A DNA stretch of 59,694 bases from positions 1 to 59,694 of the forward strand of contig CAZYDJ010000003.1 of the NCBI GenBank assembly GCA_964646035.1, read 5' to 3'. Every line of letters begins with the position of its first letter. Position 1 is the first letter of the stretch. The notes beneath the pieces were generated by a model. That model searched no databases, was not told the origin of the DNA, and worked only from the letters and a program-made list of their open reading frames with translations. Of the stretch, positions 19,811 through 52,110 are shown one piece after another. The position numbers were made by a program, and so were the translations under genes. The stretch is from an uncultured Fibrobacteraceae bacterium. GTDB lineage: Bacteria; Krumholzibacteriota; Krumholzibacteriia; LZORAL124-64-63.

Positions 19811-19839
19811 GCGTCCCTGTCCGTTTCCGGGAGAAGATC

Positions 19840-22880: not shown

Positions 22881-23870
22881 TTGAGTCCGTATCCCGCCGT
22901 GGAACTGCATCGACATCTCGAAGGTTCCGTCCGGCCGTCCCGTTTGATCGGGTTGGCCGCCAAGCACGGACTTCCGGAAGTCGCCGTCGCCTGTCTGGAC
23001 GCTTCCGGGGATTCATACCTCCCTTCTGGTGATTTCGGCGAATTTCTGGAGAGGTTTAAGGCGGTTTGCGCCGTCCTGGTCACTCCCGCCGATTATCATG
23101 CCGTCGCGATGGATCTGATCGAGGACCTGGCCGCCGAAGGCGTTGTCTGTGCTGAGATTATAATTTCCTACGGCGGGATGTTGAAGCTGGGGCGGAATCC
23201 CGCGCCCATCCAGGCAGCGTTGGCGGAAGCCGCCGCGGCCGCCCGGCAGGAGCAGGGAATCGTCCTGGGCTGGCTGCCCGACGCGGTGAGGCATTTCGGA
23301 CCCGACGCCGCCTGGCGCGTGTTGGAGGCGGCCGCGAAGGCGGGGCGCTCCGGCGGGGTTGTCGGTTTCGGCCTCGGCGGGGATGAGATGGCCGCTCCCG
23401 CGAGGGATTTCGCCGAGCACTGCGCCGCCGCCGGCCGCGAGGGACTGGGAGTGGCGATCCACGCCGGCGAGACAGCCGGGCCCGAGTCGGTGCGCGAGGT
23501 GGTCGCCGTCTGCGGCGCCGGTCGGATCGGGCATGGGCTGAGCGCCGCGGCCGATCCCGAAGTGATGAAGCTGCTCGCCGAACGGAATGTCCTGGTGGAA
23601 TTATGCCCGGGCAGCAATCTGGCCACCGGCGTCTTGTCCGCCGCCGCCGACCACCCCCTGCGGTCGTTTCTCGCAGCCGGCATTCCCTGCTGCCTCAACA
23701 CCGACGATCCCGCCATATTCGGGCTGACCCTGCGCGGAGAATACGAGCAGGCCGCGCGGGTCCACGGCCTGAAGACGGAAGAGGCCCGCCGCATGCAGCG
23801 GCAGGCCCTGGAGGCTTCCTTCATCGATTCCGGCGAGCGGGATCTTCTGGCCGGTTCGTTCGCGGACTAG
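22881..23870 (+). CDS. add: Adenosine deaminase family protein
   Basis: VELHRHLEGSVRP, IHAGE, LNTDDPAIF are the metal-binding motifs. TTG start. Confidence 0.85.
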   Translation: MSPYPAVELHRHLEGSVRPSRLIGLAAKHGLPEVAVACLDASGDSYLPSGDFGEFLERFKAVCAVLVTPADYHAVAMDLIEDLAAEGVVCAEIIISYGGMLKLGRNPAPIQAALAEAAAAARQEQGIVLGWLPDAVRHFGPDAAWRVLEAAAKAGRSGGVVGFGLGGDEMAAPARDFAEHCAAAGREGLGVAIHAGETAGPESVREVVAVCGAGRIGHGLSAAADPEVMKLLAERNVLVELCPGSNLATGVLSAAADHPLRSFLAAGIPCCLNTDDPAIFGLTLRGEYEQAARVHGLKTEEARRMQRQALEASFIDSGERDLLAGSFAD

Positions 23871-38887: not shown

Positions 38888-39349
38888 ATGAATCTGACCG
38901 ACTACATGACCGAATACCGGATGCTGCCCCGCCTCGACTGCCGCGACAAGCGCGAGATCGTGGCGCGGATGGTGGAGGCGCTTTCAGTGGAGGGATCGGT
39001 TTCCTCGGCGGCGGGTCTGGCCGCCGACATCCTGCGTCGCGAGGACGAGGAGCCGACCGCCCTGGGACTCGGCCTGGCGCTGCCCCATGCCCGTTCGGCA
39101 AAGATCGACGGGATAGCGGTCGTCGTCGCCACTCTCGCCGAACCTCTCGATATGGGCGCCGCAGACGGCAGGCCGGTCGACGTCGTGATTCTCAGTGTCG
39201 GCCCGCTTGAAGACCCGCGCGGGATGCTGCGCGTGCTGGCGAAACTGGCCCGCGTCGTGAAGCAGCGCGGCTTTCTCGATTCGCTTCGTCTCGCCGCCGG
39301 GCCTCAGCAGATGCTGATGACCGTTGAAAGAGCCGAATCAAATATCTAA
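38888..39349 (+). CDS. PTS EIIA(Ntr)-like regulatory protein (PtsN family), paralog 1
   Basis: ...LGLGLALPHARS (His site)...VDVVILSVGP... Internal ATG of track ORF 38705-39349. Confidence 0.75.
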   Translation: MNLTDYMTEYRMLPRLDCRDKREIVARMVEALSVEGSVSSAAGLAADILRREDEEPTALGLGLALPHARSAKIDGIAVVVATLAEPLDMGAADGRPVDVVILSVGPLEDPRGMLRVLAKLARVVKQRGFLDSLRLAAGPQQMLMTVERAESNI

Positions 39350-39377
39350 ATAGATAATTTCTTCCCAGTGAGCGCCC

Positions 39378-39406
39378 TTGCTCCCCCCGTCGGCATGGGT
39401 TATTGT
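39378..39406 (+). promoter_or_regulatory. Possible promoter of the 39.5-49.7 kb envelope operon
   Basis: TTGCTC, 17 nt, TATTGT. Preceded by an AT-rich stretch AATATCTAAATAGATAATTTC. Confidence 0.3.
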
Positions 39407-39478
39407 GAACGGCCAAGTCAAAGCCTTTAGCCGTCTTTCCCGAAGACTTCCGGAGTCTCTCCCGAAGGGAGCGAACAG

Positions 39479-41827
39479 ATGTCCAGTCCTCTCCAGCGGG
39501 TCCTATCCATTTTCTGGCTGGCCTTGTTGGCCGTTGCCGTGATGGCCCCCGCCTGTCTCGCCCAGGATCACATCGTCTTTACCGAGGTGGTGCTGACCGA
39601 GCGTTCAGGTGTGCCCGGTCTCGGGTGCGAGTACATCGAACTCGCCAACCCCGGCGCCACCGAAGTGGATCTGTCGGATGTGTTCCTCACCGATGCCACC
39701 CGCATCACCCAGCCCACCCAGTACTACGAGATCGTCACCGGCTCCGCCGCCGGCGGCGGGGGAACCGCCGGCGATTTCCACTGCCGTTTCCCGCAGGGCG
39801 CCACGATCGCTCCGGGAGACACGATCCTGATCTCGGTCGTGGGCAGCAACGCCTTCTTCGCCTCCTACCAGCGCCTGCCGGATTTCGAGCTTTTCGAGGA
39901 CGGGCTCACGCCTGATACCATCCCCGAAATGGTCGAGGTCTTTCCCGGCAGCGTGGGCTACGGCCTGGGCTCGGGCGGCACCAACACCCTCAGCGCCGAG
40001 CAGTGGCTGGGCGACACCAACGGCGCGCTGCTGCTCTACACCTGGGACGGGGAGTCGGATCTGGTCTCCGATCTGGACTATGTGCATTGGGGAGCCTTGA
40101 GCACGGTCCGCATCGACAAGTCGGGCGTGGCTGTCGACGGCCCTGACGCCGACGGGGAATCGTCTGCCTATGCCGCGGACACTCCGGCTTCATCCCAGCA
40201 GCCGATCAGCACCGCCACCTTCAGGTTCGGCGATTCCTTCCAGAGGAACGCATTCGCCGAAGGAGCGGAAATCGCGACCGGCGGCAACGGGATTTCGGGC
40301 CACGACGAGACCAGCGAACCGCTGGCCTCGACCTGGACCCAGTTCACCGGCAGCCAGGATCCGGCCGCTTCGCCCGTTGTCAACCTGCCGCCCGCGCCGA
40401 TCATCATCGCGACGGAATTGTCTCCCGCCGTTCCGCGGGAGAACCAGGGCGCGACCGTGACGGTCACGGCCCTGGCCGCTGACGGCGTGGCGACGATGAC
40501 TATCTGGTACAGGGTGGACGGGGGCGCCTTCATCGACGTCGCCTGCTCCGACAACGGCGACGACACCTGGGACGGAACGATACCCGGCCAGGCTCTCGAC
40601 GCCGTAGTCGACTGGTATCTGTCCACTACGGGCACCGGCGGCGGAGTCGCCCACCGGCCCGTCGCGGCGCCCACCTACGTGGAAACCTACACCGTCGTCG
40701 CCGCGCCCGAACCCGGCGAGGGTCCGGCCAAGCTGCTGCTGACCGAGATCTGCACCAAGGGCTCGGCCGGCGAATTCATCGAGATCATGAATCCCAACGA
40801 TTTCGACGTGAACCTCGGCGACTACTATCTCACCGACGCGGTCTACTACGAGCAGGGCTACTTCAAGATCGCCGCCGGCGCCACCCAGACGACCGTCGGC
40901 GGCGGCGCGTTCTACGACTTCAACGCCCGCTTCCCCGAGGACGCGGTCCTGCCCGCCGGCGAGTCGACCACCATCTCGGTCCCGGGCAGCAACAGTTTCG
41001 CCGATACCTATCTGGGATCCATCCCCGGTTACGAGCTCTTCGAGGACGGAGATTTCGCCGACCAGGTGCCGGATATGCGCGAGATATTCCCCGGCAGCAT
41101 CCGCGGCACCGACATCCCGTCGTTGACCAACATCAACCTCGATACGAGCGGTGGCGAGATCGTCGTCCTCTATTACTGGGACGGCGTCAGCGACCTGACC
41201 GTCGATATCGACGCCTTCGCCTGGGGCGACGGCAACAGCTACCGCTACAACAAGAGCGGCTTGACGGTCCTGTCCAGCAGCTACGCTCCCGAGGCCGGCT
41301 ATCCCAACCCGTATATGGCCGACCACGGTTTCGAGGAGTCGTTCCAGCGGGTCGACTTCACCGAGGGGACCCAGACCGCCGTCGGCAGCAACGGTGTCGA
41401 CGGCCGGGACGAGACCAGCGAGAACCTGCCCCTGACCTGGGGCGTCGCTCCGGTCGATCCCGCTTCGCCGCCGCTGCCCGAGGGCGCCGGCGTGGTTACC
41501 CTGAGCACTCCGCCGCGCACCTTCCTGCCGACCATGGCGGAGGGATTCCCGGTGAGCTTCTCTTCGGCGCCGGGCAGCCTGACCATCCTGCGGATCTTCG
41601 ATCTCGACGGTCGTCTCGTGCGCACGCTCTACCACAGCCAGTTCGACGGTCCCGCCTCGGTCGATCCCGAGCACCCGACCGAGATGTTCTGGGACGGTCG
41701 TAACGACGAATTCGAGCTGGTCAAGGCCGGCATGTACATCGTGCACCTTTCGGTGCGGAATTCCGAGAACGGCGACTCCGAGACGAAGACAGCGCCCGCG
41801 GTCGTCGCGACTCGGCTGAGCAAGTGA
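39479..41827 (+). CDS. Secreted protein with two lamin-tail-domain (LTD) modules, a central Ig-like region and a FlgD-Ig / T9SS-type C-terminal domain
   Basis: Signal peptide ...VMAPACLA. LTD-like ...FTEVVL...CEYIELANPGATEVDLSDVFLTD... and ...LLLTEIC...GEFIEIMNPNDFDVNLGDYYLTD... C-terminus is ...LTILRIFDLDGRLVRTLYH...FWDGRND..ELVKAGMYIVHL... Confidence 0.75.
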   Translation: MSSPLQRVLSIFWLALLAVAVMAPACLAQDHIVFTEVVLTERSGVPGLGCEYIELANPGATEVDLSDVFLTDATRITQPTQYYEIVTGSAAGGGGTAGDFHCRFPQGATIAPGDTILISVVGSNAFFASYQRLPDFELFEDGLTPDTIPEMVEVFPGSVGYGLGSGGTNTLSAEQWLGDTNGALLLYTWDGESDLVSDLDYVHWGALSTVRIDKSGVAVDGPDADGESSAYAADTPASSQQPISTATFRFGDSFQRNAFAEGAEIATGGNGISGHDETSEPLASTWTQFTGSQDPAASPVVNLPPAPIIIATELSPAVPRENQGATVTVTALAADGVATMTIWYRVDGGAFIDVACSDNGDDTWDGTIPGQALDAVVDWYLSTTGTGGGVAHRPVAAPTYVETYTVVAAPEPGEGPAKLLLTEICTKGSAGEFIEIMNPNDFDVNLGDYYLTDAVYYEQGYFKIAAGATQTTVGGGAFYDFNARFPEDAVLPAGESTTISVPGSNSFADTYLGSIPGYELFEDGDFADQVPDMREIFPGSIRGTDIPSLTNINLDTSGGEIVVLYYWDGVSDLTVDIDAFAWGDGNSYRYNKSGLTVLSSSYAPEAGYPNPYMADHGFEESFQRVDFTEGTQTAVGSNGVDGRDETSENLPLTWGVAPVDPASPPLPEGAGVVTLSTPPRTFLPTMAEGFPVSFSSAPGSLTILRIFDLDGRLVRTLYHSQFDGPASVDPEHPTEMFWDGRNDEFELVKAGMYIVHLSVRNSENGDSETKTAPAVVATRLSK
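39566..41447 (+). repeat. Internal duplication: two ~240-260 aa LTD-containing modules (39566-40347 and 40728-41447)
   Basis: Collinear matches: YELFEDG/FELFEDG, VFPGS/IFPGS, LLLYTWDGESDLVSDLDYVHWG vs VVLYYWDGVSDLTVDIDAFAWG, FQRNAFAEG vs FQRVDFTEG, NGISGHDETSEPLASTW vs NGVDGRDETSENLPLTW. Confidence 0.8.
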
Positions 41828-41841
41828 GAGAGGTGTAAACG

Positions 41842-42753
41842 ATGACACGGAAAATGATGCTGTTCGGCGTCGCTTTGGTTCTCGGCCTCTCCGCGTTGCC
41901 TGCGTTCGCGGCCTTCGAGAACGTCGACATCAGCCCCCGGGCCCGGGCCATGGGCGGCGCGGGCGCGGCGGTCGCCGACGACGCCTTCGCCCCTTATTTC
42001 AACCCTGCCGGAATCATGTTGCAGGAGGATATCGCCCTCGGCACCAGCTATGTCCGGCCTTACGGTCTCGACTTCACCGATCTCGTCTATCTGGGCGCGG
42101 TCGTCCCGCTGAGCGGGAAATCGGGCGGCTTCGGTTTCGGCCTGCGCCGGTTCGCGGTCGAATACCAGGATGTCGATCTCACCACCGAGACCACCATCAC
42201 CGCGTCCTATGCGGCCAAGGTCTACGAGGATCTCCACTCGTCGGTCACCTTCGGATCGAGCCTCAACTTCAATCACCTGGAGTTCGGCGAGTCGATCGGC
42301 TCCGGCATGGAAGCTGACGATTCCATCGATCCCGGTGATGACTGGGCGGTCGGTCTCGACGTCGGCATGATGGTGACCCTGCACGAGCGCACTCGTCTCG
42401 GAGTGATGGTCAAGAACCTGAACAACCCGCAGATCGGCATCGACGAGGAAGAGCTCGGACAACGCCTGATCGGCGGCGTCAGCTATCTGCCGTACGACGG
42501 GGTAGTCACGACGTTCGAGTTCGAGAACGCCCTCGACGGCGAACTGCAGTACCACGGCGGCGTCGAGATGACCGCCATGGAGAATCTGTTCCTGCGTTGC
42601 GGCGTGGCTACCAACCCGCAGAAGCTTACAGCGGGATTCGGCTACGGCATGGAAGGTCTGATAGTCAACTACGGCTTCTCGACCGGTGGCGGAACCCTCG
42701 ATTCCTCCCACCAGTTCGGGCTGACCTTCACCTGGGGTGGTGAAGCGCCGTGA
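41842..42753 (+). CDS. PorV/PorQ- or FadL-like outer-membrane beta-barrel
   Basis: Signal peptide ...ALPAFA. ...SPRARAMGGAGAAVADDAFAPYFNPAGI... is typical of the PorV/UPF0164/FadL N-terminal motif. Alternating beta pattern. Confidence 0.65.
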   Translation: MTRKMMLFGVALVLGLSALPAFAAFENVDISPRARAMGGAGAAVADDAFAPYFNPAGIMLQEDIALGTSYVRPYGLDFTDLVYLGAVVPLSGKSGGFGFGLRRFAVEYQDVDLTTETTITASYAAKVYEDLHSSVTFGSSLNFNHLEFGESIGSGMEADDSIDPGDDWAVGLDVGMMVTLHERTRLGVMVKNLNNPQIGIDEEELGQRLIGGVSYLPYDGVVTTFEFENALDGELQYHGGVEMTAMENLFLRCGVATNPQKLTAGFGYGMEGLIVNYGFSTGGGTLDSSHQFGLTFTWGGEAP

Positions 42754-45251
42754 GAAATACCTGGATTATTCCCGCGATAGCGCTGCTGCTGCTTGGCGCC
42801 GCGATGGCGCCTGCCGGCGCCGCCGATCAGCAGGAACCGCTGGATCTCAACCGGGCCGTCCTGGAAGAGGTCGCGGCCCTGCCGATACCGGCGGAGTTGG
42901 CTCGCAGCATCATCGACTATCGCACTTATGTCCGATTCTTCGCCAGCGTCTACGACCTGATGGAGGTCGAGGGGATGACCGCCGATTATCTGGCGGTCCT
43001 GCGGCCCCTGGTCTCGACGCTGCCGCCGGATGTGGGCGACGCCTCGATGGCCCGTCTGACCGCCAGCTACCGGCAGGCGGCCAGGTATCTGGGCCAGGAA
43101 GGCGCCAGCGAGGGTTTGGTCGATGAGTACCTGGACATGCTGCGGGATCCGGTCGATGTCAACGACCTGGATATATTCGACCTGCAGAGCTTCCAGAACG
43201 TGTCGCCGGTCGACGCCAAGAACATCCTCAAATCGCGCAATCGGCTGGGTCGTTTCGACGAAGCCCGGCAGCTGCGCGCCAGCGAGAATCTGCGCTACTG
43301 GGCCTATCGGAACATCCGGGATTTCGTCTATTACACCGATGCGGAGAAGGACGAACTCCAGGACAAGATCCACGGCAACTACCAGGTGCGTTACTACGAT
43401 TCGCCGTACATGCTCGACGACGAGGAGATCACGGCCGATTCCGACCGCAGTCTGCAGCAGCGGCTGATCATGGGCGATCCGCACATGACCCACAAGCTGA
43501 CGCTGAATCTCGGCGGCGGGGTGCGCGCGGGTCTGCTCACCCACCGCAACATGGGCGAGCAGTCCTGGAGCGAGACGCTCAAGGGCTATTACGGCGTCGA
43601 CAACCAGCACTTCGGCCCCTTCCACCTGAAGAGGCTCTACTTCGGCAACTACCGGCTCTCCTTCGGGCAGGGCCTGATCATGGACAACACCGATTTCGCC
43701 ATGTACCGCAAGACCGGCTACGGTTGGAACAAGCGTCCTCAGGGAGTGCGCGGCGATCTGAGCCGCAGCCATGAATACGCTTTGACCGGAGTCGCGGTCG
43801 AAGGCGCAGCCGGACCGATCCACGCCACCTTCTTCAGCTCCTGGGAAAAGAAGGACGGCATCCTCAATACGCCCGATCCGGTTACCGGCGATGTCACGGT
43901 CAACCGTTACGTCACGATGGAGCCCCGGCTCGAGAACAGCCTGCTCGACAACAGGCTGACCGACACCTTCGAGCCCACGGGCCTGCGTCGCGACGCCTTC
44001 GAAGAGGACATCGTCGGCGGCAACATCAAGCTGATGCTCGGGACGGCGACCTACGTCGGGATCACCGGATACGAGGCCAAGTACGACAAGGCCTTCTCTC
44101 CGGATCCGGCGACGCTGGTGGCCGACCTCGGCAAGCTCGAGACCCGCGACAGCGAGATCCTCGCCGGCTACAACAGCGTCGAGATCGATCCCGAAAGCGG
44201 CGAACGCACGTTCCACAAGTTTCGCCGGGTCTACGGCGCCGAGTTCCAGACCGTCTTCGACAACGTGGCCTTCCAGGGCGAATACGGAGTCCTGCAGGAT
44301 CCGAAGTCGAACCTGTTCCACGGCGACAACAAGGACGCCCTGGTCCTCAACGGCTACGCCCAGTGGGACGACCTGCACCTGCTGGGAATCTTCCGCGACT
44401 ACGACCTGGGCTACGACAACCCGTATAACCGGGCCTTCGCCAACGACAACCGCTACGAGCAGACGCTGCTCGACGCGCCGTACCGGATGAAGGACGACCT
44501 CTACAGCTGGCTGTCGCTCAACGAGCCCCAGCCCAAGCCGGAGAAGGGCATCTTCCTCCAGACCCGTTATCGGATCAGCCGCAGCCTGATCCTCAACGGT
44601 CTCGAGTACGACCAGTGGCAGCGGCAGGCCGACGGCACCGATCTGACCCGCTACACGGTCAAGGTCGAGTACCAGCCCATCTTCAATCTGCGTTTGCGGA
44701 TGCGGCATCGCTACAGCAGCCGTTCCGAGAGCGACATCTCGGACGTGCGCTGGTTCCAGTCGTGGGAGAGCAGGTGGGAACTGATCTCGATGCTTTCCAA
44801 CTACGACCGGCTGAAGTTCATGTATATGACCAGCAACGTGTGGTTCCCGCCGCGGCAGCGTCTCAGCGGGACACCCGAGCCCGGTTCCACTGGCAGCGGT
44901 CTCGGCACCGCGGCCATTCCGGCGCACGCGTTCCAGGTGATGTACGAGCACCACTTCACTCCGTATGTCAGGCTGCTTGTCAGCACCGAGATGTACGACG
45001 GATTCCTCTGGAACTTCGAGGGGAACGAGTTCGTGGTGGTGGACGGGCGGGGATTCCGCAACTGGGCCAAGATCGAGAGCCGGGTTTCCGAGCGGCTCCT
45101 GTTCCAACTCAAGGTGATGCGGGACCACAACCTGCCCCTGACGTATCTCGACGTCCGCGAGTACGGCGACGTCTACGGACCCGAACCGGAGAGTTCCTAC
45201 GTCCCGAACGACTGGACGACTTTCCGGATGCAGCTCGACTATTCCTTCTGA
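42750..45251 (+). CDS. 833-aa predicted outer-membrane protein: signal peptide + two ComEA-like helix-hairpin-helix motifs + ~650-aa beta-rich (barrel-like) region
   Basis: The GTG start overlaps the upstream stop (GTGA). ...LDLNRAVLEEVAALPIPAELARSIIDYR... and ...VDVNDLDIFDLQSFQNVSPVDAKNILKSRNRLGRF... Aromatic-rich alternating pattern. C-terminus is ...FRMQLDYSF. Confidence 0.6.
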   Translation: MRNTWIIPAIALLLLGAAMAPAGAADQQEPLDLNRAVLEEVAALPIPAELARSIIDYRTYVRFFASVYDLMEVEGMTADYLAVLRPLVSTLPPDVGDASMARLTASYRQAARYLGQEGASEGLVDEYLDMLRDPVDVNDLDIFDLQSFQNVSPVDAKNILKSRNRLGRFDEARQLRASENLRYWAYRNIRDFVYYTDAEKDELQDKIHGNYQVRYYDSPYMLDDEEITADSDRSLQQRLIMGDPHMTHKLTLNLGGGVRAGLLTHRNMGEQSWSETLKGYYGVDNQHFGPFHLKRLYFGNYRLSFGQGLIMDNTDFAMYRKTGYGWNKRPQGVRGDLSRSHEYALTGVAVEGAAGPIHATFFSSWEKKDGILNTPDPVTGDVTVNRYVTMEPRLENSLLDNRLTDTFEPTGLRRDAFEEDIVGGNIKLMLGTATYVGITGYEAKYDKAFSPDPATLVADLGKLETRDSEILAGYNSVEIDPESGERTFHKFRRVYGAEFQTVFDNVAFQGEYGVLQDPKSNLFHGDNKDALVLNGYAQWDDLHLLGIFRDYDLGYDNPYNRAFANDNRYEQTLLDAPYRMKDDLYSWLSLNEPQPKPEKGIFLQTRYRISRSLILNGLEYDQWQRQADGTDLTRYTVKVEYQPIFNLRLRMRHRYSSRSESDISDVRWFQSWESRWELISMLSNYDRLKFMYMTSNVWFPPRQRLSGTPEPGSTGSGLGTAAIPAHAFQVMYEHHFTPYVRLLVSTEMYDGFLWNFEGNEFVVVDGRGFRNWAKIESRVSERLLFQLKVMRDHNLPLTYLDVREYGDVYGPEPESSYVPNDWTTFRMQLDYSF

Positions 45252-45267
45252 CGGGGAGACCGAAGAT

Positions 45268-46566
45268 ATGATGACACGTTCCGACAAGCGCGACCTGCGG
45301 CGGTTCATCGCCGTCTTCGCCTGCGGGGCGGCGCTCGGCCTGATGGCTCCCGCCGCACTGGCCGGTTCGGCGCTGAATTTCCTCTACGGCGAGCCTGAGA
45401 CATTCCTCGGCGCCGAGATCAACGCCATGGGGAGCACCGGAGCCGCGGTTTTCCGCGGCGGCGCTTCCAACGTCCTGAACCCCGCAATGCTGGCCGACGT
45501 CGAGGGATTCCGCATCGATGCGGGGCTGTCCCTCGACCAGCGCCACGAGGATAGGTTCACCCCGTTGTGGGACAGCTTCGGCAACTATGTTGTCGATACC
45601 GCGATCGCATCCAACCGCGAGCACGGTTTCGGAACCGGATTCGGCTTCGCCGCCGATCTGGAGGGTTACGGCGTGCCTTTGGCCTGCGGCGTGTCCCTTA
45701 CCGACCGCTATTCGTTCGGATACGATTTCCAGGAGGACATCCGCAACCCGACGACGTATACCGACGGGCGCGACCTCATTATCGAGGAGAGGGAGTTGGA
45801 TGTCGCCGGCACCCTGCGTGATCTCTCGCTGGGCCTGGCCTATGCATCGGATCCCCGTTTCTCGTTCGGCGCCGCGGTGCATTACGCCTTCGGCAACCGT
45901 GACGAGCATCGTCTGTCGCGCGACTACGAGACCCCGGCCAACAGCACCGACGAGCGCCAGGAGTTCGACATGGACGGTGTCAACTTCTCCCTCGGCGCGC
46001 GGTTCACGCCGGACGACCGGCTGACCTTCGGCTTCTCCTGGGAAACCCCGCTGACCGTCGACGGCGACACCGACACGACGATCACGCCGTACTCCGGTGC
46101 CCGCGAGGTCTATTCCGGCACGGCCGAGGTCGAGTATCCTTCCCGGTACAGTTTCGGGATGGCCTACTATCCCCGCAACGAGTTGCGGACCGTGTTCACG
46201 GTCGATATGGTCATTTCCAACTGGAGCGACCTGACCGATAACCGTTTCGCCGAGGATCCGGTCCTCGAGGATACCTACGACGTGCGGATCGGACTGCAGC
46301 ACACCTTCTACAACGGTGTGCCGATGCGCTTCGGCTTCCGGCACGTGGACAGCTACGCCGACGTCGAGACCGGCCGCTCCTCCTTCTCGGCGGGCATCGG
46401 CAAGCCGCTGGCGAAGGGCATGATCGATGTCTCGGTCGAGCTGGGCAAGGTCTCCTTCGTCCAGGAACATTGGTTCGATTATCCCGCGGGATACGAATCC
46501 GCGGAGAGCGCCCGGGTCGAGGAGACCCACTTCCGGCTGGGCGTAGGTTACGTCCTGGAATTCTAG
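45268..46566 (+). CDS. FadL/PorV-like outer-membrane beta-barrel (second copy)
   Basis: Signal peptide ...PAALAGS. ...INAMGSTGAAVFRGGASNVLNPAMLA... C-terminus is ...FRLGVGYVLEF. Confidence 0.6.
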   Translation: MMTRSDKRDLRRFIAVFACGAALGLMAPAALAGSALNFLYGEPETFLGAEINAMGSTGAAVFRGGASNVLNPAMLADVEGFRIDAGLSLDQRHEDRFTPLWDSFGNYVVDTAIASNREHGFGTGFGFAADLEGYGVPLACGVSLTDRYSFGYDFQEDIRNPTTYTDGRDLIIEERELDVAGTLRDLSLGLAYASDPRFSFGAAVHYAFGNRDEHRLSRDYETPANSTDERQEFDMDGVNFSLGARFTPDDRLTFGFSWETPLTVDGDTDTTITPYSGAREVYSGTAEVEYPSRYSFGMAYYPRNELRTVFTVDMVISNWSDLTDNRFAEDPVLEDTYDVRIGLQHTFYNGVPMRFGFRHVDSYADVETGRSSFSAGIGKPLAKGMIDVSVELGKVSFVQEHWFDYPAGYESAESARVEETHFRLGVGYVLEF

Positions 46567-46629
46567 GATCACCGGCCTGCCGCCGGCTCAGGCGGACGGC
46601 CGGATCTTCCTCCCGGACAGGGGTGCGGG

Positions 46630-47970
46630 ATGTTCCCGCTCCGATCGTGCGGCCGCCGAAGCCGCTGCCGGCCGGTTCCGATTCCGGCGATCTGCCTGGT
46701 GGTCCTGGCCGCGGGTTGCGGCGGACCCGCCGCGCCGCCCGAACTCCTGCAGTCGCCGCTCGGCGACGTGACCGGAGCGGTGGTGCGCTGGACGACTTCC
46801 CGGCCTGCGCGGGCCGCCGTCCGCTACGGATTCGTTTCCGGTCGTTACGATCGGTTGGCCTATCCCGCCGCGGGCGGGGGAGACGACAAGGCCCGGCGGA
46901 CTGAACACGCGGTGCCGCTGCTGGCGCTTCCGCCGCGGACTCCGGTCTTCATCCGCAGGGTGAACACCGAGCCGGGGCTGGCCGCGGCCGTGGCCGCGCA
47001 GGAGACTCTGTTCTTCGCCGAGCCTCCGGCCTGTGCCCGGTTGCTGCGGTTCACCTCGGTGGATGTGCAGTTCGGCGACGCCCTGGTCCTGGAATGTCCC
47101 TCGGGAGCGGTTGTCCTGATCGACGCCGGTGATCCCGAGGAGGGCCGCGCCGGCGAAGCGGCTCCCGCGCATCTGATGCGCTGGCTCGATGACCACGGAG
47201 TCGATGGTTTGGCCGCGGCGGCCCTGACCCACGCGCATCGCGATCACGTCGGCGGTTTCGTCCGCGGCGGTATCGACGGCGTGGGGGTGGTCGACACCCG
47301 CGGCATCGGGGTTTTCCTGGACCTGCCCGCCCACTCGGGGGAGCGTCCGGACCACCGGACCCTGGTTGCGCGGCTGGAGGAACTCGGCGTACCCCGTCTG
47401 GCCGTTGCCCCGGGGATGACCGACGGATCGCATCCCGACCGTCTCGGCTGGGATCCCGCCCTGAGGGTTGAAGTGCTCCACGGCGGAGCCGAACCGGGCT
47501 GGAGCGATCTGAACAATGACTCGTTGGCCCTGCGCGTCGGCTACGGCGACGTGGACTTCCTGACCGTCGGGGACTGTGAGGCGGCGGCCGAAGAGCTGAT
47601 GCTCGAACGGTTTCCGGGGAAACTGGCGGGGATCGAGGTGCTCAAGGCGGGACATCACGGCCGCTCCGACGCCAGCGGCGGGTTGTTCCTCGACGCGGTG
47701 CTGCCCCGCACGGCTCTGGTGACGGTGGCATTTGCGGCTTATCGTGAAGGTGTAGCCGCGGGGGCCGAAGCCACCGCTCCGGTCCTGGCCCGGTTCGCGG
47801 CGCGGGGAACGGACGTTTTCCGGTTCGATGACGCGGAGCCGCTCGGCGAGCCCGCCGACACGCGAACTTTCTGGCATACGACCCTGGTCACCGACGGGGT
47901 CAGCTACGAGATCCGATTGGAACCGTCGGTCTGGGGTCTAACGAGATCCATCCCGGACGGACAGCCCTGA
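46630..47970 (+). CDS. Lipoprotein with ComEC/Rec2-type metallo-beta-lactamase domain
   Basis: Lipobox LAAGC. N-terminal beta-sandwich-like ...VVRWTTSRPARAAVRYG... MBL motifs ...VLIDAGD...LTHAHRDHVGG...LKAGHHGRSD... Confidence 0.75.
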   Translation: MFPLRSCGRRSRCRPVPIPAICLVVLAAGCGGPAAPPELLQSPLGDVTGAVVRWTTSRPARAAVRYGFVSGRYDRLAYPAAGGGDDKARRTEHAVPLLALPPRTPVFIRRVNTEPGLAAAVAAQETLFFAEPPACARLLRFTSVDVQFGDALVLECPSGAVVLIDAGDPEEGRAGEAAPAHLMRWLDDHGVDGLAAAALTHAHRDHVGGFVRGGIDGVGVVDTRGIGVFLDLPAHSGERPDHRTLVARLEELGVPRLAVAPGMTDGSHPDRLGWDPALRVEVLHGGAEPGWSDLNNDSLALRVGYGDVDFLTVGDCEAAAEELMLERFPGKLAGIEVLKAGHHGRSDASGGLFLDAVLPRTALVTVAFAAYREGVAAGAEATAPVLARFAARGTDVFRFDDAEPLGEPADTRTFWHTTLVTDGVSYEIRLEPSVWGLTRSIPDGQP

Positions 47971-47981
47971 GGAGAGGGGAT

Positions 47982-49721
47982 ATGAACCTGATGCGCAACG
48001 CCCTCCGCAACTCCGTGCCGCTGGCGGCGGCGCTGGTCCTGGCGGCGACGATCGTTTCCTTGCCCGGGACCGCCCTCTGCGGCGACGCCGACCAGGTGCG
48101 GCTGCACCTGATATGGACCAACGACGTGCACGGCCACGTCGCTCCCGAACCCGCCCGCTTCATGAACCCCAATTTCCCGCCCCCGCTGGGCGGCGGTGCG
48201 TCCATGGCGGCCTACATCAAGGGTATCCGGGAAGAAGCAGCCGCCGCCGGCGACGACGTCCTGCTGCTCGACGCCGGCGACTTCTTCCAGGGCGCTCCGG
48301 TCGGCTCCAAGACCCGCGGCGACGCCATGGTCGATTTCTATGACACCCTCGAATACGACGCCCTGGTTCCGGGCAACCATGATTTCGACATGGGACGCGA
48401 CAACACCGAGCGTCTGGCCGGGATGATGGACGTGCCCTGGGTCTGCGCCAACCTGCGCGAGGAGAGCACCGGCGAGATCGTCTCCTGGTGTCGTCCGACC
48501 CTGATGATCGAGAAGGCCGGGCTGAAGATCGGCGTCATCGGCATCATCACTCCCGGAACCGTCATCATGTCCTTCCCCGACAACATCAAGGGCTTGATCT
48601 TCGACCCCATGGCGCCGGTGATCGAACGCTATCGCGACGAATTGCTGGAGCAGGGAGCCGACCTGATCTGCCTGCTGATCCACGAGGGCCTGCCCTATGA
48701 CAAGGACAAGGCCTGGCGACAGTTGGCCAAGTCCGGCGATGAAGCCGACGACAACTCCCGCCAGGACTCGGGCGGGGCCTACGGCAGCGTCACCGGCGGC
48801 GCCATGGACCTGATGGAGCTGATGAACGTCGTTCCCGGCATCGACTTCGCCGTCGGCGGGCATTCCCACGTGGGATACCAGGAACCCTGGATCGATCCCG
48901 TCAACCACACTCTCTGCTTCGAGACCTACGGCAACGGATCGAGCGTCGGCCACTGCATCCTGAAGATCGATCGGCCCACCAAGCAGATCATCGGCTACGA
49001 CGCTCCGCATGATCGCGGAGTTCTCGTCACCCTCTTCGAGGACGAGTTGTGGCCAGACGCCGAGATGACAGCGGTCCTGCGTCCCCACATCGAGAAGACC
49101 GACGCCGAGATGGACGCCATTCTCGGCAGCTCCAGCATCAACCTCAATCGCGGCGGCCCCGGCAGCAACCTGGTGGGCAACCTGGTCACCGACGCGATGT
49201 GCGAGTATTTCGACGCTGATTTCTCGTTCCAGAACCTGGGTGGACTGCGCGCCAACATCTCGAGCGGCAACATCACCGCCCGTGACGTCTTCTCGGTCCT
49301 GCCCTTCGGCAACGAACTGGTCCTGGTGCAGATGAAGGGTTCGATGTTGCGCCGCATCGTCGAGCGGAAGGTCCGAGGCATGTCCGGCGGCATCTGCGTA
49401 TCCGGCGTGGAGGTCACGTTCAACAAGAATCGCCCCGACATGGACCGGGTCTGCAGCTTCCTGGTCGGCGGCGAGCCCCTGGATCACGAGAAGATCTACA
49501 GGGTCGTCTGCACCAGCTTCCTGATGGAGGGGAACAGCGGCCTCGATTTCCTCACCCAGATCAGCGCCGAGAACATCGAACTGACGCAGATCACGACCGC
49601 CGAATCGGTCGAGCGTTATCTCAAGCTGCACAGCCCCGTCCGCCCGCGGATCGACAACCGCTGGGTCGAGGACGGAAAGGCCGAACAGCAGCCTTATCTC
49701 GCGGTCCGGTACCTGCCCTGA
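47982..49721 (+). CDS. Secreted bifunctional metallophosphatase / 5'-nucleotidase
   Basis: Signal peptide. ...TNDVHGH...LLLDAGDFFQG...VPGNHDFD...GGHSH... plus a 5'-nucleotidase C-terminal-like ...FQNLGGLRA...FSVLPFGN... Confidence 0.85.
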   Translation: MNLMRNALRNSVPLAAALVLAATIVSLPGTALCGDADQVRLHLIWTNDVHGHVAPEPARFMNPNFPPPLGGGASMAAYIKGIREEAAAAGDDVLLLDAGDFFQGAPVGSKTRGDAMVDFYDTLEYDALVPGNHDFDMGRDNTERLAGMMDVPWVCANLREESTGEIVSWCRPTLMIEKAGLKIGVIGIITPGTVIMSFPDNIKGLIFDPMAPVIERYRDELLEQGADLICLLIHEGLPYDKDKAWRQLAKSGDEADDNSRQDSGGAYGSVTGGAMDLMELMNVVPGIDFAVGGHSHVGYQEPWIDPVNHTLCFETYGNGSSVGHCILKIDRPTKQIIGYDAPHDRGVLVTLFEDELWPDAEMTAVLRPHIEKTDAEMDAILGSSSINLNRGGPGSNLVGNLVTDAMCEYFDADFSFQNLGGLRANISSGNITARDVFSVLPFGNELVLVQMKGSMLRRIVERKVRGMSGGICVSGVEVTFNKNRPDMDRVCSFLVGGEPLDHEKIYRVVCTSFLMEGNSGLDFLTQISAENIELTQITTAESVERYLKLHSPVRPRIDNRWVEDGKAEQQPYLAVRYLP

Positions 49722-49868: not shown

Positions 49869-51116
<1,248 letters not shown>

Positions 51117-51553: not shown

Positions 51554-52015
51554 CTAGCCCTCCATCAATACCTGGCGGAAACCATCGTAGTCCTCGGCGG
51601 CCGAGGCGGCGTCGCGGAGTTCTGCGTTCTGGAGTTTGTCGGTCAGCACTGCCAGCGACTGGATGTACTGGTTGCCGGAATCCTGTGGAGGAGCCACGAG
51701 CATGAAGAACAGATGCGTCGGCTCACCGTCGATGGAATCGAAGGCGACACCCTTCCGGGAGCGGGCCGTGACGATGACCAGGTCCTGGGTGGCCAGGGTG
51801 CGTCCGTGGGGGAAGGCGACGCCGGGCCCGACAGCGGTGCTGCCGAGGGCTTCGCGGTTGATCAGCATCTGCAACAGCGTTTCCTTATCCTGGATGGAAG
51901 AGCCGGAAACCAGAACATCGACCATTTCCGCGAGAACGCCTTCCTTGTCGGAAGCGGCGAGGTCCTTGATGAAGAGATCAGGAGAAGTAAGTTCCAGGAC
52001 TGTCTGCATGTCCAT
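51554..52015 (-). CDS. PTS EIIA(Ntr)-like regulatory protein (PtsN family), paralog 2
   Basis: MDMQTVLELTSPDLFIKDL...GSTAVGPGVAFPHGRT (His site)...LFFMLVAPP... Internal ATG 52015; the track ORF extends to 52153. Confidence 0.8.
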   Translation of the reverse strand: MDMQTVLELTSPDLFIKDLAASDKEGVLAEMVDVLVSGSSIQDKETLLQMLINREALGSTAVGPGVAFPHGRTLATQDLVIVTARSRKGVAFDSIDGEPTHLFFMLVAPPQDSGNQYIQSLAVLTDKLQNAELRDAASAAEDYDGFRQVLMEG

Positions 52016-52110
52016 CAGGGAGACCACCTTGAGAACCGGGAGGAATTGTGCTACCACCACAACATCCGGTAACCTAAACAATAGGTCATCGATCCTCAAG
52101 CAACGATTTG

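What the first reader, a model, noticed from the sequence alone, without database searches (positions are those of the whole stretch)
39479..49721. Six-gene outer-membrane operon combining LTD, HhH, three beta-barrels, a ComEC-type MBL and a 5'-nucleotidase: candidate extracellular-DNA capture/degradation/salvage machine
Six co-directional genes are separated by -4 to +64 nt, so they probably form one transcript. Gene 1 is a secreted double lamin-tail-domain protein with a FlgD-Ig/T9SS-like C-terminal domain. Gene 2 is a PorV/FadL-like barrel. Gene 3 is an 833-aa protein with two ComEA-like helix-hairpin-helix motifs fused to a very large beta-rich region ending in an OMP-type ...DYSF. Gene 4 is a second FadL/PorV-like barrel. 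Gene 5 is a lipoprotein with a ComEC/Rec2-type metallo-beta-lactamase domain (HAHRDH). Gene 6 is a secreted 5'-nucleotidase (GNHDFD). Established knowledge supports each link: bacterial LTDs are recurrently fused to extracellular nucleases and phosphoesterases, ComEA HhH motifs bind dsDNA non-specifically, ComEC MBL domains are proposed nucleases, and 5'-nucleotidases convert nucleotides to importable nucleosides. The combination suggests a dedicated surface system that binds extracellular DNA, degrades it and moves products, or DNA itself, across the outer membrane. I do not know of a characterised system with this composition.
Basis: partly seen in the sequence, partly recalled or inferred. 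Interest (0 to 1): 0.8.

Follow-up and report, generated by a model that had tools for sequence, protein, structure and literature searches.

The report
Conserved outer-membrane nucleic-acid scavenging operon
This operon, from an uncultured Krumholzibacteriota bacterium, encodes three outer-membrane barrels, a surface lamin-tail protein and nucleotide-cleaving enzymes, and it recurs in hundreds of related species always beside nucleic-acid enzymes, so it is probably an undescribed machine for capturing and using environmental DNA or RNA.

Summary
The six genes are real and lie at the stated coordinates, and nearly all the domain calls hold. The order LTD protein, PorV-like barrel, HhH+24-strand barrel, FadL/BamG-like barrel and 5'-nucleotidase is kept in every one of 80 species-level genomes of Krumholzibacteriota and Eisenbacteria that had enough flanking DNA. 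Relatives with only 24-31% identity keep the LTD/three-barrel core. They swap in other nucleic-acid enzymes: Endonuclease I with an OB fold, an EEP nuclease, or another MBL. This supports a nucleic-acid function.

Four points need correcting:
- The ComEC-type MBL lipoprotein is an accessory gene, present in 7 of 55 loci.
- The HhH domains are acidic and lack Gly-x-Gly hairpins, so ComEA-like DNA binding is doubtful.
- The 5'-nucleotidase is a soluble periplasmic enzyme. Its substrate must therefore cross the outer membrane, and the large barrel has a conserved basic lumen.
- The LTD protein carries a specialised C-terminal domain and always sits just before the PorV-like barrel. This resembles a T9SS cargo paired with its shuttle.

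My best reading is a surface capture, import and salvage system for extracellular nucleic acid. Whether the large barrel imports or exports is not resolved. I found no published description.

The parts
39378..39406 (+). Promoter-like element: TTGCTC, 17 nt spacer, TATTGT, 72 nt upstream of the g1 start codon.
   Evidence: Read from the sequence. The related motif CTTGA[AT]-N16-19-TAnn[GT]T lies 50-68 nt upstream of g1 homologues in 13 relatives, against 0.08 expected from shuffles. The consensus scan did not report it.
39464..39471 (+). Shine-Dalgarno sequence GAAGGGAG, 7 nt before the g1 ATG.
   Evidence: Read from the sequence. An AAGGGAG-type site lies in the last 25 nt before the start in 25 of 68 relatives.
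39479..41827 (+). g1: secreted protein with two lamin-tail domains (each with a large insert), a central Ig-like region and a C-terminal sorting or docking domain. No catalytic domain was found.
   Evidence: LTD PF00932 5e-16, two stretches. Both halves align to the same LTD module in L090 and L091. A homologue lies upstream of g2 in 63 of 63 loci.
41510..41824 (+). g1 C-terminal domain (about 105 aa). It is a specialised member of the FlgD_ig/T9SS-type CTD superfamily and always sits at the extreme C-terminus of the protein encoded just before g2.
   Evidence: An HMM built from it scores 1e-24 to 1e-46 on the protein(s) before g2 in all loci, whose stop-to-stop ORFs run from about 370 to 1810 aa. 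It scores only 1e-4 to 1e-11 on other FlgD_ig/Por_Secre_tail proteins (Pfam calls in 43, 44).
41842..42753 (+). g2: 14-strand PorV/FadL-fold outer-membrane barrel with an N-terminal hatch (RARAMGGAGAA...NPAG).
   Evidence: PorV_fam 2e-18; PorP_SprF above its gathering score. AlphaFold pLDDT 81 with 14 strands. Best Foldseek hit is PorV in the substrate-bound T9SS translocon, 8gl6_F, TM 0.70. The profile hits PorV at 9e-9. It lies next to g3 in 75 of 75 loci.
42750..45251 (+). g3: signal peptide, a tandem HhH (HHH_3) domain and an outer-membrane barrel of about 24 strands from a family with no Pfam model. It ends in the beta-signal ...LDYSF.
   Evidence: The family has 606 cluster representatives at E<=1e-3 and is found in 460 species genomes.
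42831..43349 (+). g3 N-terminal region: HhH1 (aa 28-95), a conserved acidic helical linker, and HhH2 (aa 132-200). It is presumed to be periplasmic.
   Evidence: HHH_3, two stretches. Helical in the model. HhH1 has pI 4.3 and the hairpins read LPIPAE, EGMTAD, QNVSPVDA and SENLRY, not G-h-G. The relative P0207 has TPR repeats in front of the HhH domain.
43371..45248 (+). g3 barrel (aa 208-833), with highly conserved loops FGQGLIMDNTDF...RGDLSRS and YDLGYDNPYNRAFANDNRYE (family consensus FDNPYNRAFS).
   Evidence: 24 strands of at least 7 residues. Foldseek finds only generic large barrels at TM 0.2-0.28. Lumen-facing residues carry a net charge of +5 to +18 in all 25 diverse members, while the whole proteins are mostly net negative.
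44688..44723 (+). Basic ladder LRLRMRHRYSSR: alternating Arg residues on the lumen face of one strand.
   Evidence: Positions 648, 650, 652, 654 and 658 are Arg or Lys in 16-24 of 25 diverse relatives.
45268..46566 (+). g4: FadL-family outer-membrane barrel, closest to BamG of Bacteroidota. It has an N-terminal AMGSTGAA...NPAM hatch motif and a C-terminal Phe.
   Evidence: NCBIfam BamG 2e-26 (93 bits, cut-off 250). The profile hits B. thetaiotaomicron BamG 9hiv_F at 9e-18, TodX at 7e-15 and F. johnsoniae BamG at 9e-7. It is homologous to g2, hhalign probability 98.7%. It is present downstream of g3 in 68 of 68 loci with room, including three where the HSP overlaps the end of g3.
46630..47970 (+). 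g5: lipoprotein (lipobox LAAGC, Cys30) with a ComEC-type metallo-beta-lactamase domain (HAHRDH at 47230-47247; GHHG at 47650-47661). It is an accessory member of the operon.
   Evidence: PDB ComEC 30bt_A 1.7e-19; TIGR00361 1e-16 over the MBL part only. The lipobox Cys is conserved in all 9 homologues. The gene is present in 7 of 55 loci with room, spread over both phyla, and a homologous MBL lies upstream of g2 in L088.
47982..49721 (+). g6: UshA-family 5'-nucleotidase with a Sec signal peptide, predicted to be soluble in the periplasm. The subfamily motif is FMNPNFPPPLGGGAS.
   Evidence: Metallophos plus 5_nucleotid_C 3e-33. Catalytic motifs are intact. No Cys or lipobox is conserved in the N-termini of about 65 homologues. 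It lies downstream in 55 of 55 loci and is also present in L087, L088 and L090.

Best explanation
The operon encodes a cell-envelope module for scavenging extracellular nucleic acid. It is built around a complex of three outer-membrane barrels.

**Step 1, inferred.** The LTD protein g1 is exported and displayed on the cell surface. It is held through its specialised C-terminal domain by the PorV-like barrel g2, in the way T9SS cargo CTDs are held by PorV or by PorP/SprF-like shuttles.

**Step 2, inferred.** The LTD modules capture DNA or RNA. In other lineages they are fused or linked to OB folds, Endonuclease I or EEP nucleases. The captured polymer is cut, here by the ComEC-type MBL lipoprotein g5 where it is present, or by nucleases encoded elsewhere.

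**Step 3, inferred from the anatomy.** The anionic products pass the outer membrane through the 24-strand barrel g3, whose lumen is lined with conserved Arg and Lys. The FadL/BamG-like barrel g4 acts as an accessory subunit, possibly docking a lipoprotein.

**Step 4, shown by sequence features.** In the periplasm the soluble 5'-nucleotidase g6 has intact catalytic motifs. It would convert nucleotides to nucleosides and phosphate for uptake across the inner membrane.

The tandem HhH domain of g3 is periplasmic. It more likely serves as a docking, gating or plug element than as a ComEA-type DNA clamp.
For: **Conserved gene order.** In 80 species-level genomes of Krumholzibacteriota and Eisenbacteria (g3 identity 37-75%), g2 is present in 75 of 75 loci with room, g4 in 68 of 68, g1 in 63 of 63 and g6 in 55 of 55. 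The downstream ClpX-like neighbour is lost in Eisenbacteria, so this is more than inherited synteny.

**Distant relatives keep the core and change the enzyme.** At 24-31% identity the LTD/g2/g3/g4 core remains, with different nucleic-acid enzymes beside it:
- L088: a 5'-nucleotidase, a protein of more than 2381 aa with Endonuclease I (3e-56) and an OB fold, and an upstream MBL homologous to g5.
- L087: a 5'-nucleotidase and a giant protein with two LTDs.
- L090: an LTD protein and a fusion of a metallophosphatase with an EEP nuclease domain.
- L091: an LTD protein with an OB fold (5e-15).

This is the same domain set (LTD, OB fold, EEP, Endonuclease I, UshA-type nucleotidase) that acts in eDNA utilisation by Shewanella ExeM and Vibrio (PMC6085458; PMC4714964). 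LTDs are known to accompany MBL, EEP and calcineurin-like hydrolases.

**Need for import.** g6 has a signal peptide, no conserved lipobox and no CTD. It is therefore periplasmic, and its substrate must enter the periplasm.

**A channel suited to anions.** The g3 lumen carries a net charge of +5 to +18 in all 25 diverse members, with a conserved basic ladder.

**The enzymes look active.** g5 matches the ComEC MBL domain at 1.7e-19, has an intact HxHxDH motif and has a conserved lipobox.

**Partner barrels.** g2 is structurally closest to cargo-bound PorV. g4 is closest to BamG, a FadL-type barrel that docks a lipoprotein onto a larger barrel.
Against: **No function has been measured.** The argument rests on association with genes of known function and on anatomy.

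**The HhH domains lack the hallmarks of DNA binding.** HhH1 is acidic and all four hairpins lack G-h-G.

**Many operons have no polymer-cleaving nuclease.** Most Krumholzibacteriota versions lack g5, leaving only a nucleotidase.

**The LTD role is unproven.** DNA binding by LTDs has not been established. In ExeM the LTD was dispensable for extracellular DNA degradation.

**The direction of transport is unknown.** The PorV/PorP-like barrel, the CTD pairing and a TPR-HhH-barrel variant resemble export or display machinery as much as import machinery.

**The lumen charge has no control.** I did not compare it with a set of unrelated large barrels.

**The conservation is unusual for a nutrient system.** g3 is universal in two phyla and highly conserved (median 55% identity), which is more typical of a housekeeping function.

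**No inner-membrane transporter is linked.** No nucleoside or phosphate transporter is consistently encoded nearby.
Confidence: 0.5

Rival explanations
1. **Export and display module.** In this reading g2, g3 and g4 form a dedicated outer-membrane secretion or anchoring complex for the adjacent LTD and nuclease proteins, related to or dependent on the T9SS. g3 is an export or attachment pore and not an import channel. Nucleic acid is still the target, but degradation happens outside the cell and the products enter through ordinary porins.
For: - g2 matches PorP_SprF, PorV and PorQ, and is structurally closest to cargo-bound PorV.
- The specialised g1 CTD always lies immediately upstream of g2. 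This mirrors type B CTD cargo and their cognate PorP/SprF shuttles or anchors (PMC9143113; PMC12618676).
- The partner proteins vary greatly in size, from about 460 aa to more than 3000 aa, as secretion cargoes do.
- The variant P0207 has TPR repeats in front of the barrel, as polymer-export porins do.
- Universal presence and high conservation fit a secretion component.
Against: - It does not explain why a periplasmic 5'-nucleotidase without a CTD is co-conserved in 55 of 55 loci.
- It does not explain the basic lumen.
- g3 shows no similarity to SprA or any other known translocon.
- No energising component is encoded in the operon.
Confidence: 0.22
2. **DNA uptake for natural transformation.** This would be a pilus-independent route. 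Surface LTD proteins bind dsDNA, g3 conducts it across the outer membrane, and the periplasmic HhH domain receives it before it is handed to ComEC.
For: - g3 has a ComEA-type HHH_3 fold and the operon includes a ComEC-type MBL nuclease.
- In Riemerella, which also belongs to the FCB group, transformation needs an outer-membrane barrel, a surface protein encoded beside it and a periplasmic HhH protein, and no known pilus (PMC8459023).
Against: - The HhH domains are acidic and lack G-h-G hairpins.
- The enzyme that is invariably linked is a nucleotidase, and relatives add Endonuclease I or EEP nucleases. These destroy DNA rather than preserve it.
- No ComEC channel, DprA or ComF gene lies in any of the neighbourhoods examined.
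Confidence: 0.08
3. **Matrix anchoring.** The surface LTD proteins tie cells to eDNA in flocs or biofilms. The nucleases and the nucleotidase remodel that matrix, and the barrels are only anchors.
For: - The LTD proteins have no catalytic domain in this lineage.
- ExeM-type LTD nucleases affect biofilm formation.
- The organisms come from sludge and sediments, where eDNA is structural.
Against: - A conserved 24-strand barrel with a basic lumen and a periplasmic nucleotidase are not needed for anchoring.
Confidence: 0.07
4. **Housekeeping outer-membrane biogenesis.** In this reading g4 is the BamG of the lineage and g3 is a BAM-associated or envelope-assembly barrel. The linkage to the nucleotidase and the LTD protein would be incidental.
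For: - The best family hit for g4 is BamG.
- g3 is universal and slowly evolving in these phyla.
Against: - g4 scores 93 bits against a BamG cut-off of 250 and hits TodX nearly as well.
- No BamA, BamD or BamH gene lies nearby.
- Nucleases are recruited to the core repeatedly and independently in distant lineages.
Confidence: 0.05

Closest known systems
eDNA utilisation pathway of Vibrio cholerae and Shewanella (Xds/ExeM, Dns/EndA, UshA/CpdB)
   Same: It uses the same enzyme and domain set. LTD, OB-fold and EEP domains occur in ExeM, Endonuclease I is involved, and a periplasmic UshA-family 5'-nucleotidase releases phosphate and nucleosides.
   Different: In those bacteria the genes are scattered and no dedicated outer-membrane component is known. 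Here the enzymes are organised in one operon around three barrels. In this lineage the LTD protein is a separate, non-catalytic surface protein.
T9SS cargo handling: PorV with SprA, and type B CTD cargo with cognate PorP/SprF-like shuttles or anchors
   Same: g2 has the PorV fold (TM 0.70 to cargo-bound PorV) and passes the PorP_SprF gathering score. It is always encoded right after a protein that ends in a conserved CTD, as with cargo and shuttle pairs in Flavobacterium and Porphyromonas.
   Different: g2 is about 100 residues shorter than PorV and falls below the NCBIfam cut-offs for PorV, PorQ and PorP. g3 is not SprA. The CTD is a distinct subfamily. Whether these phyla have T9SS core genes was not tested.
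Barrel-based natural transformation genes of Riemerella anatipestifer (RA0C_RS04915, RS04920, RS02645)
   Same: It is an FCB-group, pilus-independent scheme that needs an outer-membrane barrel, a surface protein encoded beside it and a periplasmic HhH protein for DNA uptake.
   Different: [quoted passage not shown] Its HhH protein is a separate polypeptide. No nucleotidase is linked. No homology to g3 was tested or seen.
BamA-BamG-BamH of the Bacteroidota BAM complex
   Same: It shows a FadL-family 14-strand barrel acting as a structural partner of a larger barrel and as a dock for a lipoprotein. g4 is closest in sequence to BamG.
   Different: g4 is well below the BamG family cut-off. The partner barrel is g3 and not an Omp85 protein. 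The neighbouring genes concern nucleic acid, not outer-membrane protein assembly.
Sus-like polysaccharide utilisation loci (SusC/SusD)
   Same: The logic is the same: a surface binding protein, surface and periplasmic hydrolases, and a dedicated outer-membrane conduit, all in one operon.
   Different: There is no TonB-dependent transporter, plug domain or SusD homologue. The substrate is nucleic acid and not glycan.
ComEA and ComEC competence proteins
   Same: g3 has the HHH_3 fold and g5 has the ComEC-type MBL domain.
   Different: The g3 HhH domains are acidic, lack G-h-G hairpins and are fused to a barrel. g5 lacks the ComEC membrane channel and OB domain and is a lipoprotein.

Membership tests
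ComEA (DNA-binding HhH receptor) | HHH_3 helix-hairpin-helix fold | tested here: met
   PF12836 scores 56 bits against a gathering score of 27, in two stretches. All 25 diverse relatives match it. The region is helical in the AlphaFold model.
ComEA (DNA-binding HhH receptor) | Canonical G-h-G hairpins and a basic DNA-binding surface; family model TIGR01259 above its cut-off | tested here: not met
   The hairpins read LPIPAE, EGMTAD, QNVSPVDA and SENLRY. HhH1 has pI 4.1-5.7 in nearly all of 59 sequences; three distant members are near neutral, up to 6.9. TIGR01259 scores 28.9 against a cut-off of 152.
ComEA (DNA-binding HhH receptor) | Binds dsDNA non-specifically | not testable with these tools
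   This needs an EMSA or similar assay on residues 25-205 of g3.
ComEC/Rec2 | MBL domain with the HxHxDH metal site | tested here: met
   HAHRDH at aa 201-206. PDB ComEC 30bt_A 1.7e-19 over aa 102-367.
ComEC/Rec2 | Polytopic competence channel domain and N-terminal OB domain; TIGR00361 above its cut-off | tested here: not met
   Only the MBL part matches, and TIGR00361 scores 60 against a cut-off of 190. No competence-domain Pfam hit was found. The protein is a 446-aa lipoprotein.
PorV/PorQ (T9SS shuttle barrels) | 14-strand FadL-type barrel with an N-terminal hatch | tested here: met
   The AlphaFold model has 14 strands and pLDDT 81. Foldseek gives 8gl6_F PorV at TM 0.70 and 1.8e-10.
PorV/PorQ (T9SS shuttle barrels) | Family and equivalog model scores above the curated cut-offs | tested here: not met
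   NF033709 scores 66.9 against 90, PorV NF033710 scores 20 against 250 and PorQ scores 17 against 220.
PorP/SprF-like shuttles or anchors | Pfam PF11751 above its gathering score | tested here: met
   It scores 26.3 bits against 22.3, which is marginal. TIGR03519 scores 23 against 90.55, so that model is not met.
PorP/SprF-like shuttles or anchors | Encoded next to its cognate CTD-bearing cargo | tested here: met
   A protein ending in the conserved CTD lies immediately upstream of g2 in every locus with room.
PorP/SprF-like shuttles or anchors | Physically binds the cargo CTD; depends on the T9SS core | not testable with these tools
   This needs pull-downs or complex prediction. Whether SprA and PorKLMN are present in these genomes was not examined.
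BamG (Bacteroidota BAM subunit) | NF053685 above its cut-off | tested here: not met
   It scores 93 bits against 250. The profile hits B. thetaiotaomicron BamG at 9e-18 but also TodX at 7e-15.
BamG (Bacteroidota BAM subunit) | Associates with BamA and docks BamH | not testable with these tools
   No BamA, BamD or BamH gene lies in any neighbourhood examined.
UshA-type periplasmic 5'-nucleotidase | Metallophos and 5_nucleotid_C domains with catalytic motifs and a signal peptide | tested here: met
   PF02872 scores 115.7 bits and PF00149 scores 33.7 bits. The motifs were located. The signal peptide is conserved and there is no lipobox.
UshA-type periplasmic 5'-nucleotidase | Equivalog-level identity to UshA, CpdB or NadN | tested here: not met
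   The best hits score 174 against 1646 (PRK09419) and 156 against 600 (UshA). This is a distinct subfamily with an FMNPxFPPPLGGGAS insert.
Lamin-tail-domain proteins | PF00932 above its gathering score | tested here: met
   It scores 59.4 bits against 34.3, in two copies.
T9SS cargo (type A or type B CTD) | C-terminal domain matching Por_Secre_tail, CHU_C or FlgD_ig | tested here: inconclusive
   The g1 tail alone gives FlgD_ig E = 0.14. The Eisenbacteria homologue gives 4.6e-4, and the g1-CTD HMM cross-hits genuine FlgD_ig/CHU_C/Por_Secre_tail tails at 1e-6 to 1e-11.
TonB-dependent transporter / SusC | Plug domain, TonB box and a 22-strand barrel | tested here: not met
   No Plug or TonB_dep_Rec hit was found in g3 or in 25 relatives, even at E<=1. 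Foldseek TM to TonB-dependent transporters is about 0.23.
SprA/Sov T9SS translocon | 36-strand barrel of about 2400 aa | tested here: not met
   g3 is 833 aa with about 24 strands, and SprA is not among the top 50 Foldseek hits.

The most novel reading that the evidence does not exclude
g3 may define a new class of outer-membrane nucleic-acid translocon. It would be a 24-strand, basic-lumen barrel that needs neither TonB nor a pilus, is flanked by two FadL-fold partner barrels, and imports oligonucleotides or DNA captured by CTD-docked LTD proteins. Its acidic tandem HhH domain would act as a gate or as a mimic of the substrate. If so, it would be the first dedicated outer-membrane import channel for nucleic acid. 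It would also be a genomic marker for eDNA foragers in uncultured phyla of the FCB superphylum.
Probability: 0.3. Interest if true: 0.9.

Novelty: new variant of a known kind. Interest (0 to 1): 0.72.

Why it matters
**Ecology.** Extracellular DNA is a major pool of phosphorus, nitrogen and carbon in sediments and sludge. How Gram-negative bacteria move nucleic-acid fragments across the outer membrane is poorly defined.

**What the operon offers.** It supplies a concrete, testable candidate:
- a barrel family with no Pfam model, conserved in at least 460 species;
- two PorV/BamG-like partner barrels;
- a surface LTD protein that may be docked through its C-terminal domain.

**Wider consequences if the model holds.**
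- The use of FadL-fold barrels as partner subunits would extend beyond the T9SS and BAM.
- The long-unexplained link between bacterial LTDs and phosphoesterases would gain a functional context.
- Metagenomic surveys would gain a marker for eDNA foraging in Krumholzibacteriota, Eisenbacteria and related uncultured lineages.

Tried and rejected
- **Foldseek of the g3 model against the PDB.** It returned only generic large barrels (SlpA, TonB-dependent transporters, LptD, ushers, MtrB) at TM 0.2-0.28. No family could be assigned.
- **Permissive Pfam scan of 25 diverse g3 relatives.** It found nothing for the barrel, only HHH_3, HHH and weak T2SSK hits.
- **Sigma-70 promoter and terminator scan of 38.6-51.3 kb.** It found nothing above chance inside the operon and missed the conserved promoter upstream of g1.
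- **Naming the organisms of the distant low-GC relatives.** The cluster look-up gave no taxon names. The search with P0245 gave only 4 proteins.
- **Record titles.** Many of the 80 genome records carry titles such as "Fibrobacteraceae", "Gemmatimonas" or "Saccharimonadales" despite 43-75% identity and full synteny. I therefore did not use the titles as evidence of wide phyletic spread.
- **Treating g5 as a core member.** Rejected, because it is present in only 7 of 55 loci.
- **Treating g6 as a lipoprotein or a secreted enzyme.** Rejected, because the Cys in its signal peptide is not conserved.
- **Literature searches.** None returned a description of an operon combining HhH barrels, LTDs and the T9SS, of eDNA outer-membrane channels, or of nucleases in Krumholzibacteriota or Eisenbacteria in this arrangement.
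- **Position of the HhH domain.** I could not determine whether it sits below or inside the barrel, because the tool returns no coordinates or PAE.

Full report
**Source and observation**

The window equals positions 1-59694 of scaffold_10 (128.5 kb) of ENA metagenome assembly ERZ23495388. The closest homologues that carry names come from Candidatus Krumholzibacteria.

Profile searches confirm the domain calls:
- g1 has two LTDs.
- g2 matches the PorV/PorQ family (2e-18) and passes the PorP_SprF gathering score.
- g3 has two HHH_3 units and no other Pfam domain.
- g4 matches BamG (2e-26), below that model's cut-off.
- g5 has a lipobox and HAHRDH. Its best match among solved structures is the ComEC MBL domain (1.7e-19).
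- g6 is a Metallophos plus 5_nucleotid_C enzyme with all catalytic motifs intact.

No internal promoter or terminator stands out. A promoter-like TTGCTC-17-TATTGT element and a GAAGGGAG ribosome-binding site precede g1. A matching CTTGAA-N17-TAttGT motif lies at the same distance in at least 13 relatives, against 0.08 expected by chance. This fits g1 being the first gene of a single transcript.

**Structures of the barrels**

- **g3.** With 34 homologues, AlphaFold gives pLDDT 73 and pTM 0.69. The model has a helical N-terminal region (aa 30-200) followed by 24 long strands. Foldseek finds only generic large barrels at TM 0.2-0.28. Permissive Pfam scans of 25 diverse relatives find nothing for the barrel. 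It is therefore a barrel family without a model.
- **g2.** The model has pLDDT 81, with 14 strands and an N-terminal hatch. Its best structural match is PorV in the substrate-bound T9SS translocon (8gl6_F, TM 0.70), followed by FadL.
- **g4.** No structure was predicted. Its profile hits Bacteroides BamG (9e-18), TodX (7e-15) and Flavobacterium BamG (9e-7). It is homologous to g2, with hhalign probability 98.7%.

The claim of three barrels therefore holds. The two small barrels are closest to PorV and BamG. These FadL-fold proteins are known as partner subunits of larger barrels that hold a cargo CTD or a lipoprotein.

**Conservation of the operon**

A pattern scan of 185,579 species genomes found g3 relatives in 460 of them. 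The 80 best loci are Krumholzibacteriota and Eisenbacteria, with g3 identity of 37-75%. Among loci with enough flanking DNA:

| Gene | Loci with the gene / loci with room |
|---|---|
| g2, directly upstream of g3 | 75 / 75 |
| g4, directly downstream of g3 | 68 / 68 |
| LTD protein g1, upstream | 63 / 63 |
| 5'-nucleotidase g6, downstream | 55 / 55 |
| MBL g5 | 7 / 55 |
| ClpX-like neighbour g7 | 38 / 51 |

The g5 loci fall in both phyla. The ClpX-like neighbour follows only in Krumholzibacteriota. The conserved unit is therefore g1-g2-g3-g4-g6, with g5 as an old but frequently lost accessory.

**Distant relatives give the strongest evidence**

Members with 24-31% identity to g3, from marine and digester metagenomes, keep the g2-g3-g4 barrel core, with an LTD protein alongside in three of the four contexts. 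Their partner enzymes differ:
- **L088 and L089 (the same locus from two records).** They carry a 5'-nucleotidase and a protein of more than 2381 aa with Endonuclease I (3e-56) and an OB fold. Upstream lies an MBL homologous to g5.
- **L087.** It carries a 5'-nucleotidase and a giant protein with two LTDs.
- **L090.** It carries an LTD protein and a fusion of the nucleotidase's metallophosphatase domain with an EEP nuclease domain.
- **L091.** It carries an LTD protein with an OB fold.

These are the domain families that carry out eDNA utilisation in Shewanella and Vibrio. They are also the hydrolase superfamilies that LTDs are known to accompany. Repeated recruitment of different nucleic-acid enzymes to the same barrel core is hard to explain unless the core handles nucleic acid or its products.

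- **The HhH domains are unlikely to act like ComEA.** HhH1 has pI 4.1-5.7 in nearly all of 59 sequences (three distant members are near neutral), and the linker is acidic. All four hairpins lack the G-h-G motif. The ComEA family model is far below its cut-off. The variant P0207 places TPR repeats in front of the HhH domain, which suggests the whole N-terminal region is periplasmic.
- **The 5'-nucleotidase is periplasmic.** Across about 65 homologues it has a signal peptide but no conserved Cys, and it has no CTD. Its substrates must therefore cross the outer membrane.
- **The g3 lumen is basic.** Residues on the polar face of the strands carry a net charge of +5 to +18 in all 25 diverse members, although the proteins are mostly net acidic. 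A ladder of alternating Arg and Lys (aa 648-658) is conserved. This fits a channel for anions or polyanions. I did not run a control on unrelated barrels.
- **The g1 tail is a specialised docking domain.** The last 100 or so residues of g1 form a CTD subfamily that always lies at the very end of the protein encoded just before g2. This holds whatever the length or N-terminal architecture of that protein (E 1e-24 to 1e-46). Ordinary FlgD_ig/Por_Secre_tail tails score only 1e-4 to 1e-11. The arrangement mirrors T9SS type B cargo and their cognate PorP/SprF-like shuttles or anchors.

**Proposed mechanism**

I commit to a system for capturing extracellular nucleic acid, processing it and importing the products.
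1. The LTD protein is displayed on the surface, docked to g2 through its CTD.
2. Nucleic acid is captured and cleaved, by the ComEC-type MBL lipoprotein where present or by nucleases encoded elsewhere.
3. The anionic products pass through g3, with g4 as an accessory barrel.
4. The periplasmic 5'-nucleotidase completes conversion to nucleosides and phosphate.

What is shown and what is inferred:
- **Shown:** the domain identities, the intact motifs, the predicted locations and the genomic linkage.
- **Inferred:** binding of nucleic acid, the direction of transport, and assembly of the barrels into a complex.

I give the full model a confidence of 0.5. The narrower claim that the module is nucleic-acid related is considerably more likely than that.

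**Rival explanations**

- **Export or display module (0.22).** g2-g3-g4 would export or anchor the LTD and nuclease cargo. The PorV/PorP resemblance and the CTD pairing support this. It leaves the invariant periplasmic nucleotidase and the basic lumen unexplained.
- **Uptake for transformation (0.08).** Riemerella offers a precedent based on an outer-membrane barrel and a periplasmic HhH protein. The degenerate HhH domains and the degradative partner enzymes argue against it.
- **Anchoring to an eDNA matrix (0.07).**
- **A BAM-like housekeeping role (0.05).**

**Novelty**

None of the nine literature searches I ran returned a description of this operon or of the g3 family. The general logic is known: a surface binder, a dedicated outer-membrane conduit and periplasmic hydrolases, acting on eDNA for salvage. 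The machinery is not known from any characterised system:
- a 24-strand barrel fused to HhH domains and independent of TonB;
- two FadL-fold partner barrels;
- a CTD-docked LTD protein.

I therefore rate it a new variant of a known kind, with high interest. The more novel reading, a dedicated outer-membrane nucleic-acid translocon, remains open at a probability of about 0.3.

Noticed in passing
window 39340-39478: A sigma-70-like promoter (TTGCTC-17-TATTGT) is followed by a 5' leader of about 70 nt and a strong GAAGGGAG ribosome-binding site. The promoter motif and its distance from the start codon recur upstream of g1 homologues in many Krumholzibacteriota. The leader was not examined for structure or for a regulatory site such as a Pho box.
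   Followed up: partly
window 49869-51116: A ClpX-like AAA_2/ClpB_D2-small ATPase (415 aa) follows the operon in 38 of 51 loci, all of them Krumholzibacteriota. It is absent after the operon in Eisenbacteria. It may be simple synteny or a lineage-specific partner.
   Followed up: partly
window 38889-39349 (+) and about 51554-52057 (-): Two PTS_EIIA_2 (PtsN-like) genes flank the operon. The same arrangement appears in other Krumholzibacteriota contigs (L003, L005). A regulatory link to nutrient status is possible but was not examined.
   Followed up: no
window 22881-23870 (+): An adenosine deaminase gene (PF00962, 2e-75) lies about 16 kb upstream. It encodes a nucleoside-catabolic enzyme that could act downstream of the 5'-nucleotidase. 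Its linkage in relatives was not checked.
   Followed up: no
window 17564-21309 (+): A GldG-like ABC_transp_aux/DUF7088 protein (748 aa) is followed by a DUF4340 protein (489 aa). In Bacteroidota this pairing belongs to the gliding-associated ABC transporter.
   Followed up: no
L091 16807-18672: A second, unrelated HHH_3-containing protein (621 aa, 7.6e-11) lies 4 kb downstream of the g3 homologue. It is not similar to g3 at E<1e-3. It may represent another HhH-fused envelope protein family.
   Followed up: partly
L090 13799-15718: A fusion protein (639 aa) joins a metallophosphatase domain homologous to g6 (31% identity, 2e-50) to an EEP nuclease domain (PF03372, 2.6e-10). It occupies the position of the 5'-nucleotidase.
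   Followed up: yes
P0207 (1251 aa; not in the window): This g3-family member has an N-terminal extension of about 430 aa that includes TPR repeats (TPR_2, 7e-21), ahead of the HhH domain and the barrel. It also shows a faint TPR_Slam hit.
   Followed up: partly
L007-L086 (record titles): Many genome records that carry this fully syntenic operon are titled "uncultured Fibrobacteraceae", "Gemmatimonas sp.", "Gemmatimonadales", "Latescibacterota" or "Saccharimonadales". These titles look like misassigned MAG taxonomy and not true breadth.
   Followed up: no
L010 and L016 (both from MAG CAYMCR01): Two separate contigs of one MAG each carry a g1-g2-g3 block (65% and 64% identity to the window's g3). 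This indicates either two copies in one genome or a bin that mixes strains.
   Followed up: no
L080, L082-L084, L086 (Eisenbacteria), about 2400-7000 and 13800-16900: In these Eisenbacteria loci two consecutive proteins that bear the g1-type CTD precede g2. In L080, L082, L083 and L086 a third LTD protein with an ordinary FlgD_ig/CHU_C/Por_Secre_tail tail follows the 5'-nucleotidase.
   Followed up: partly
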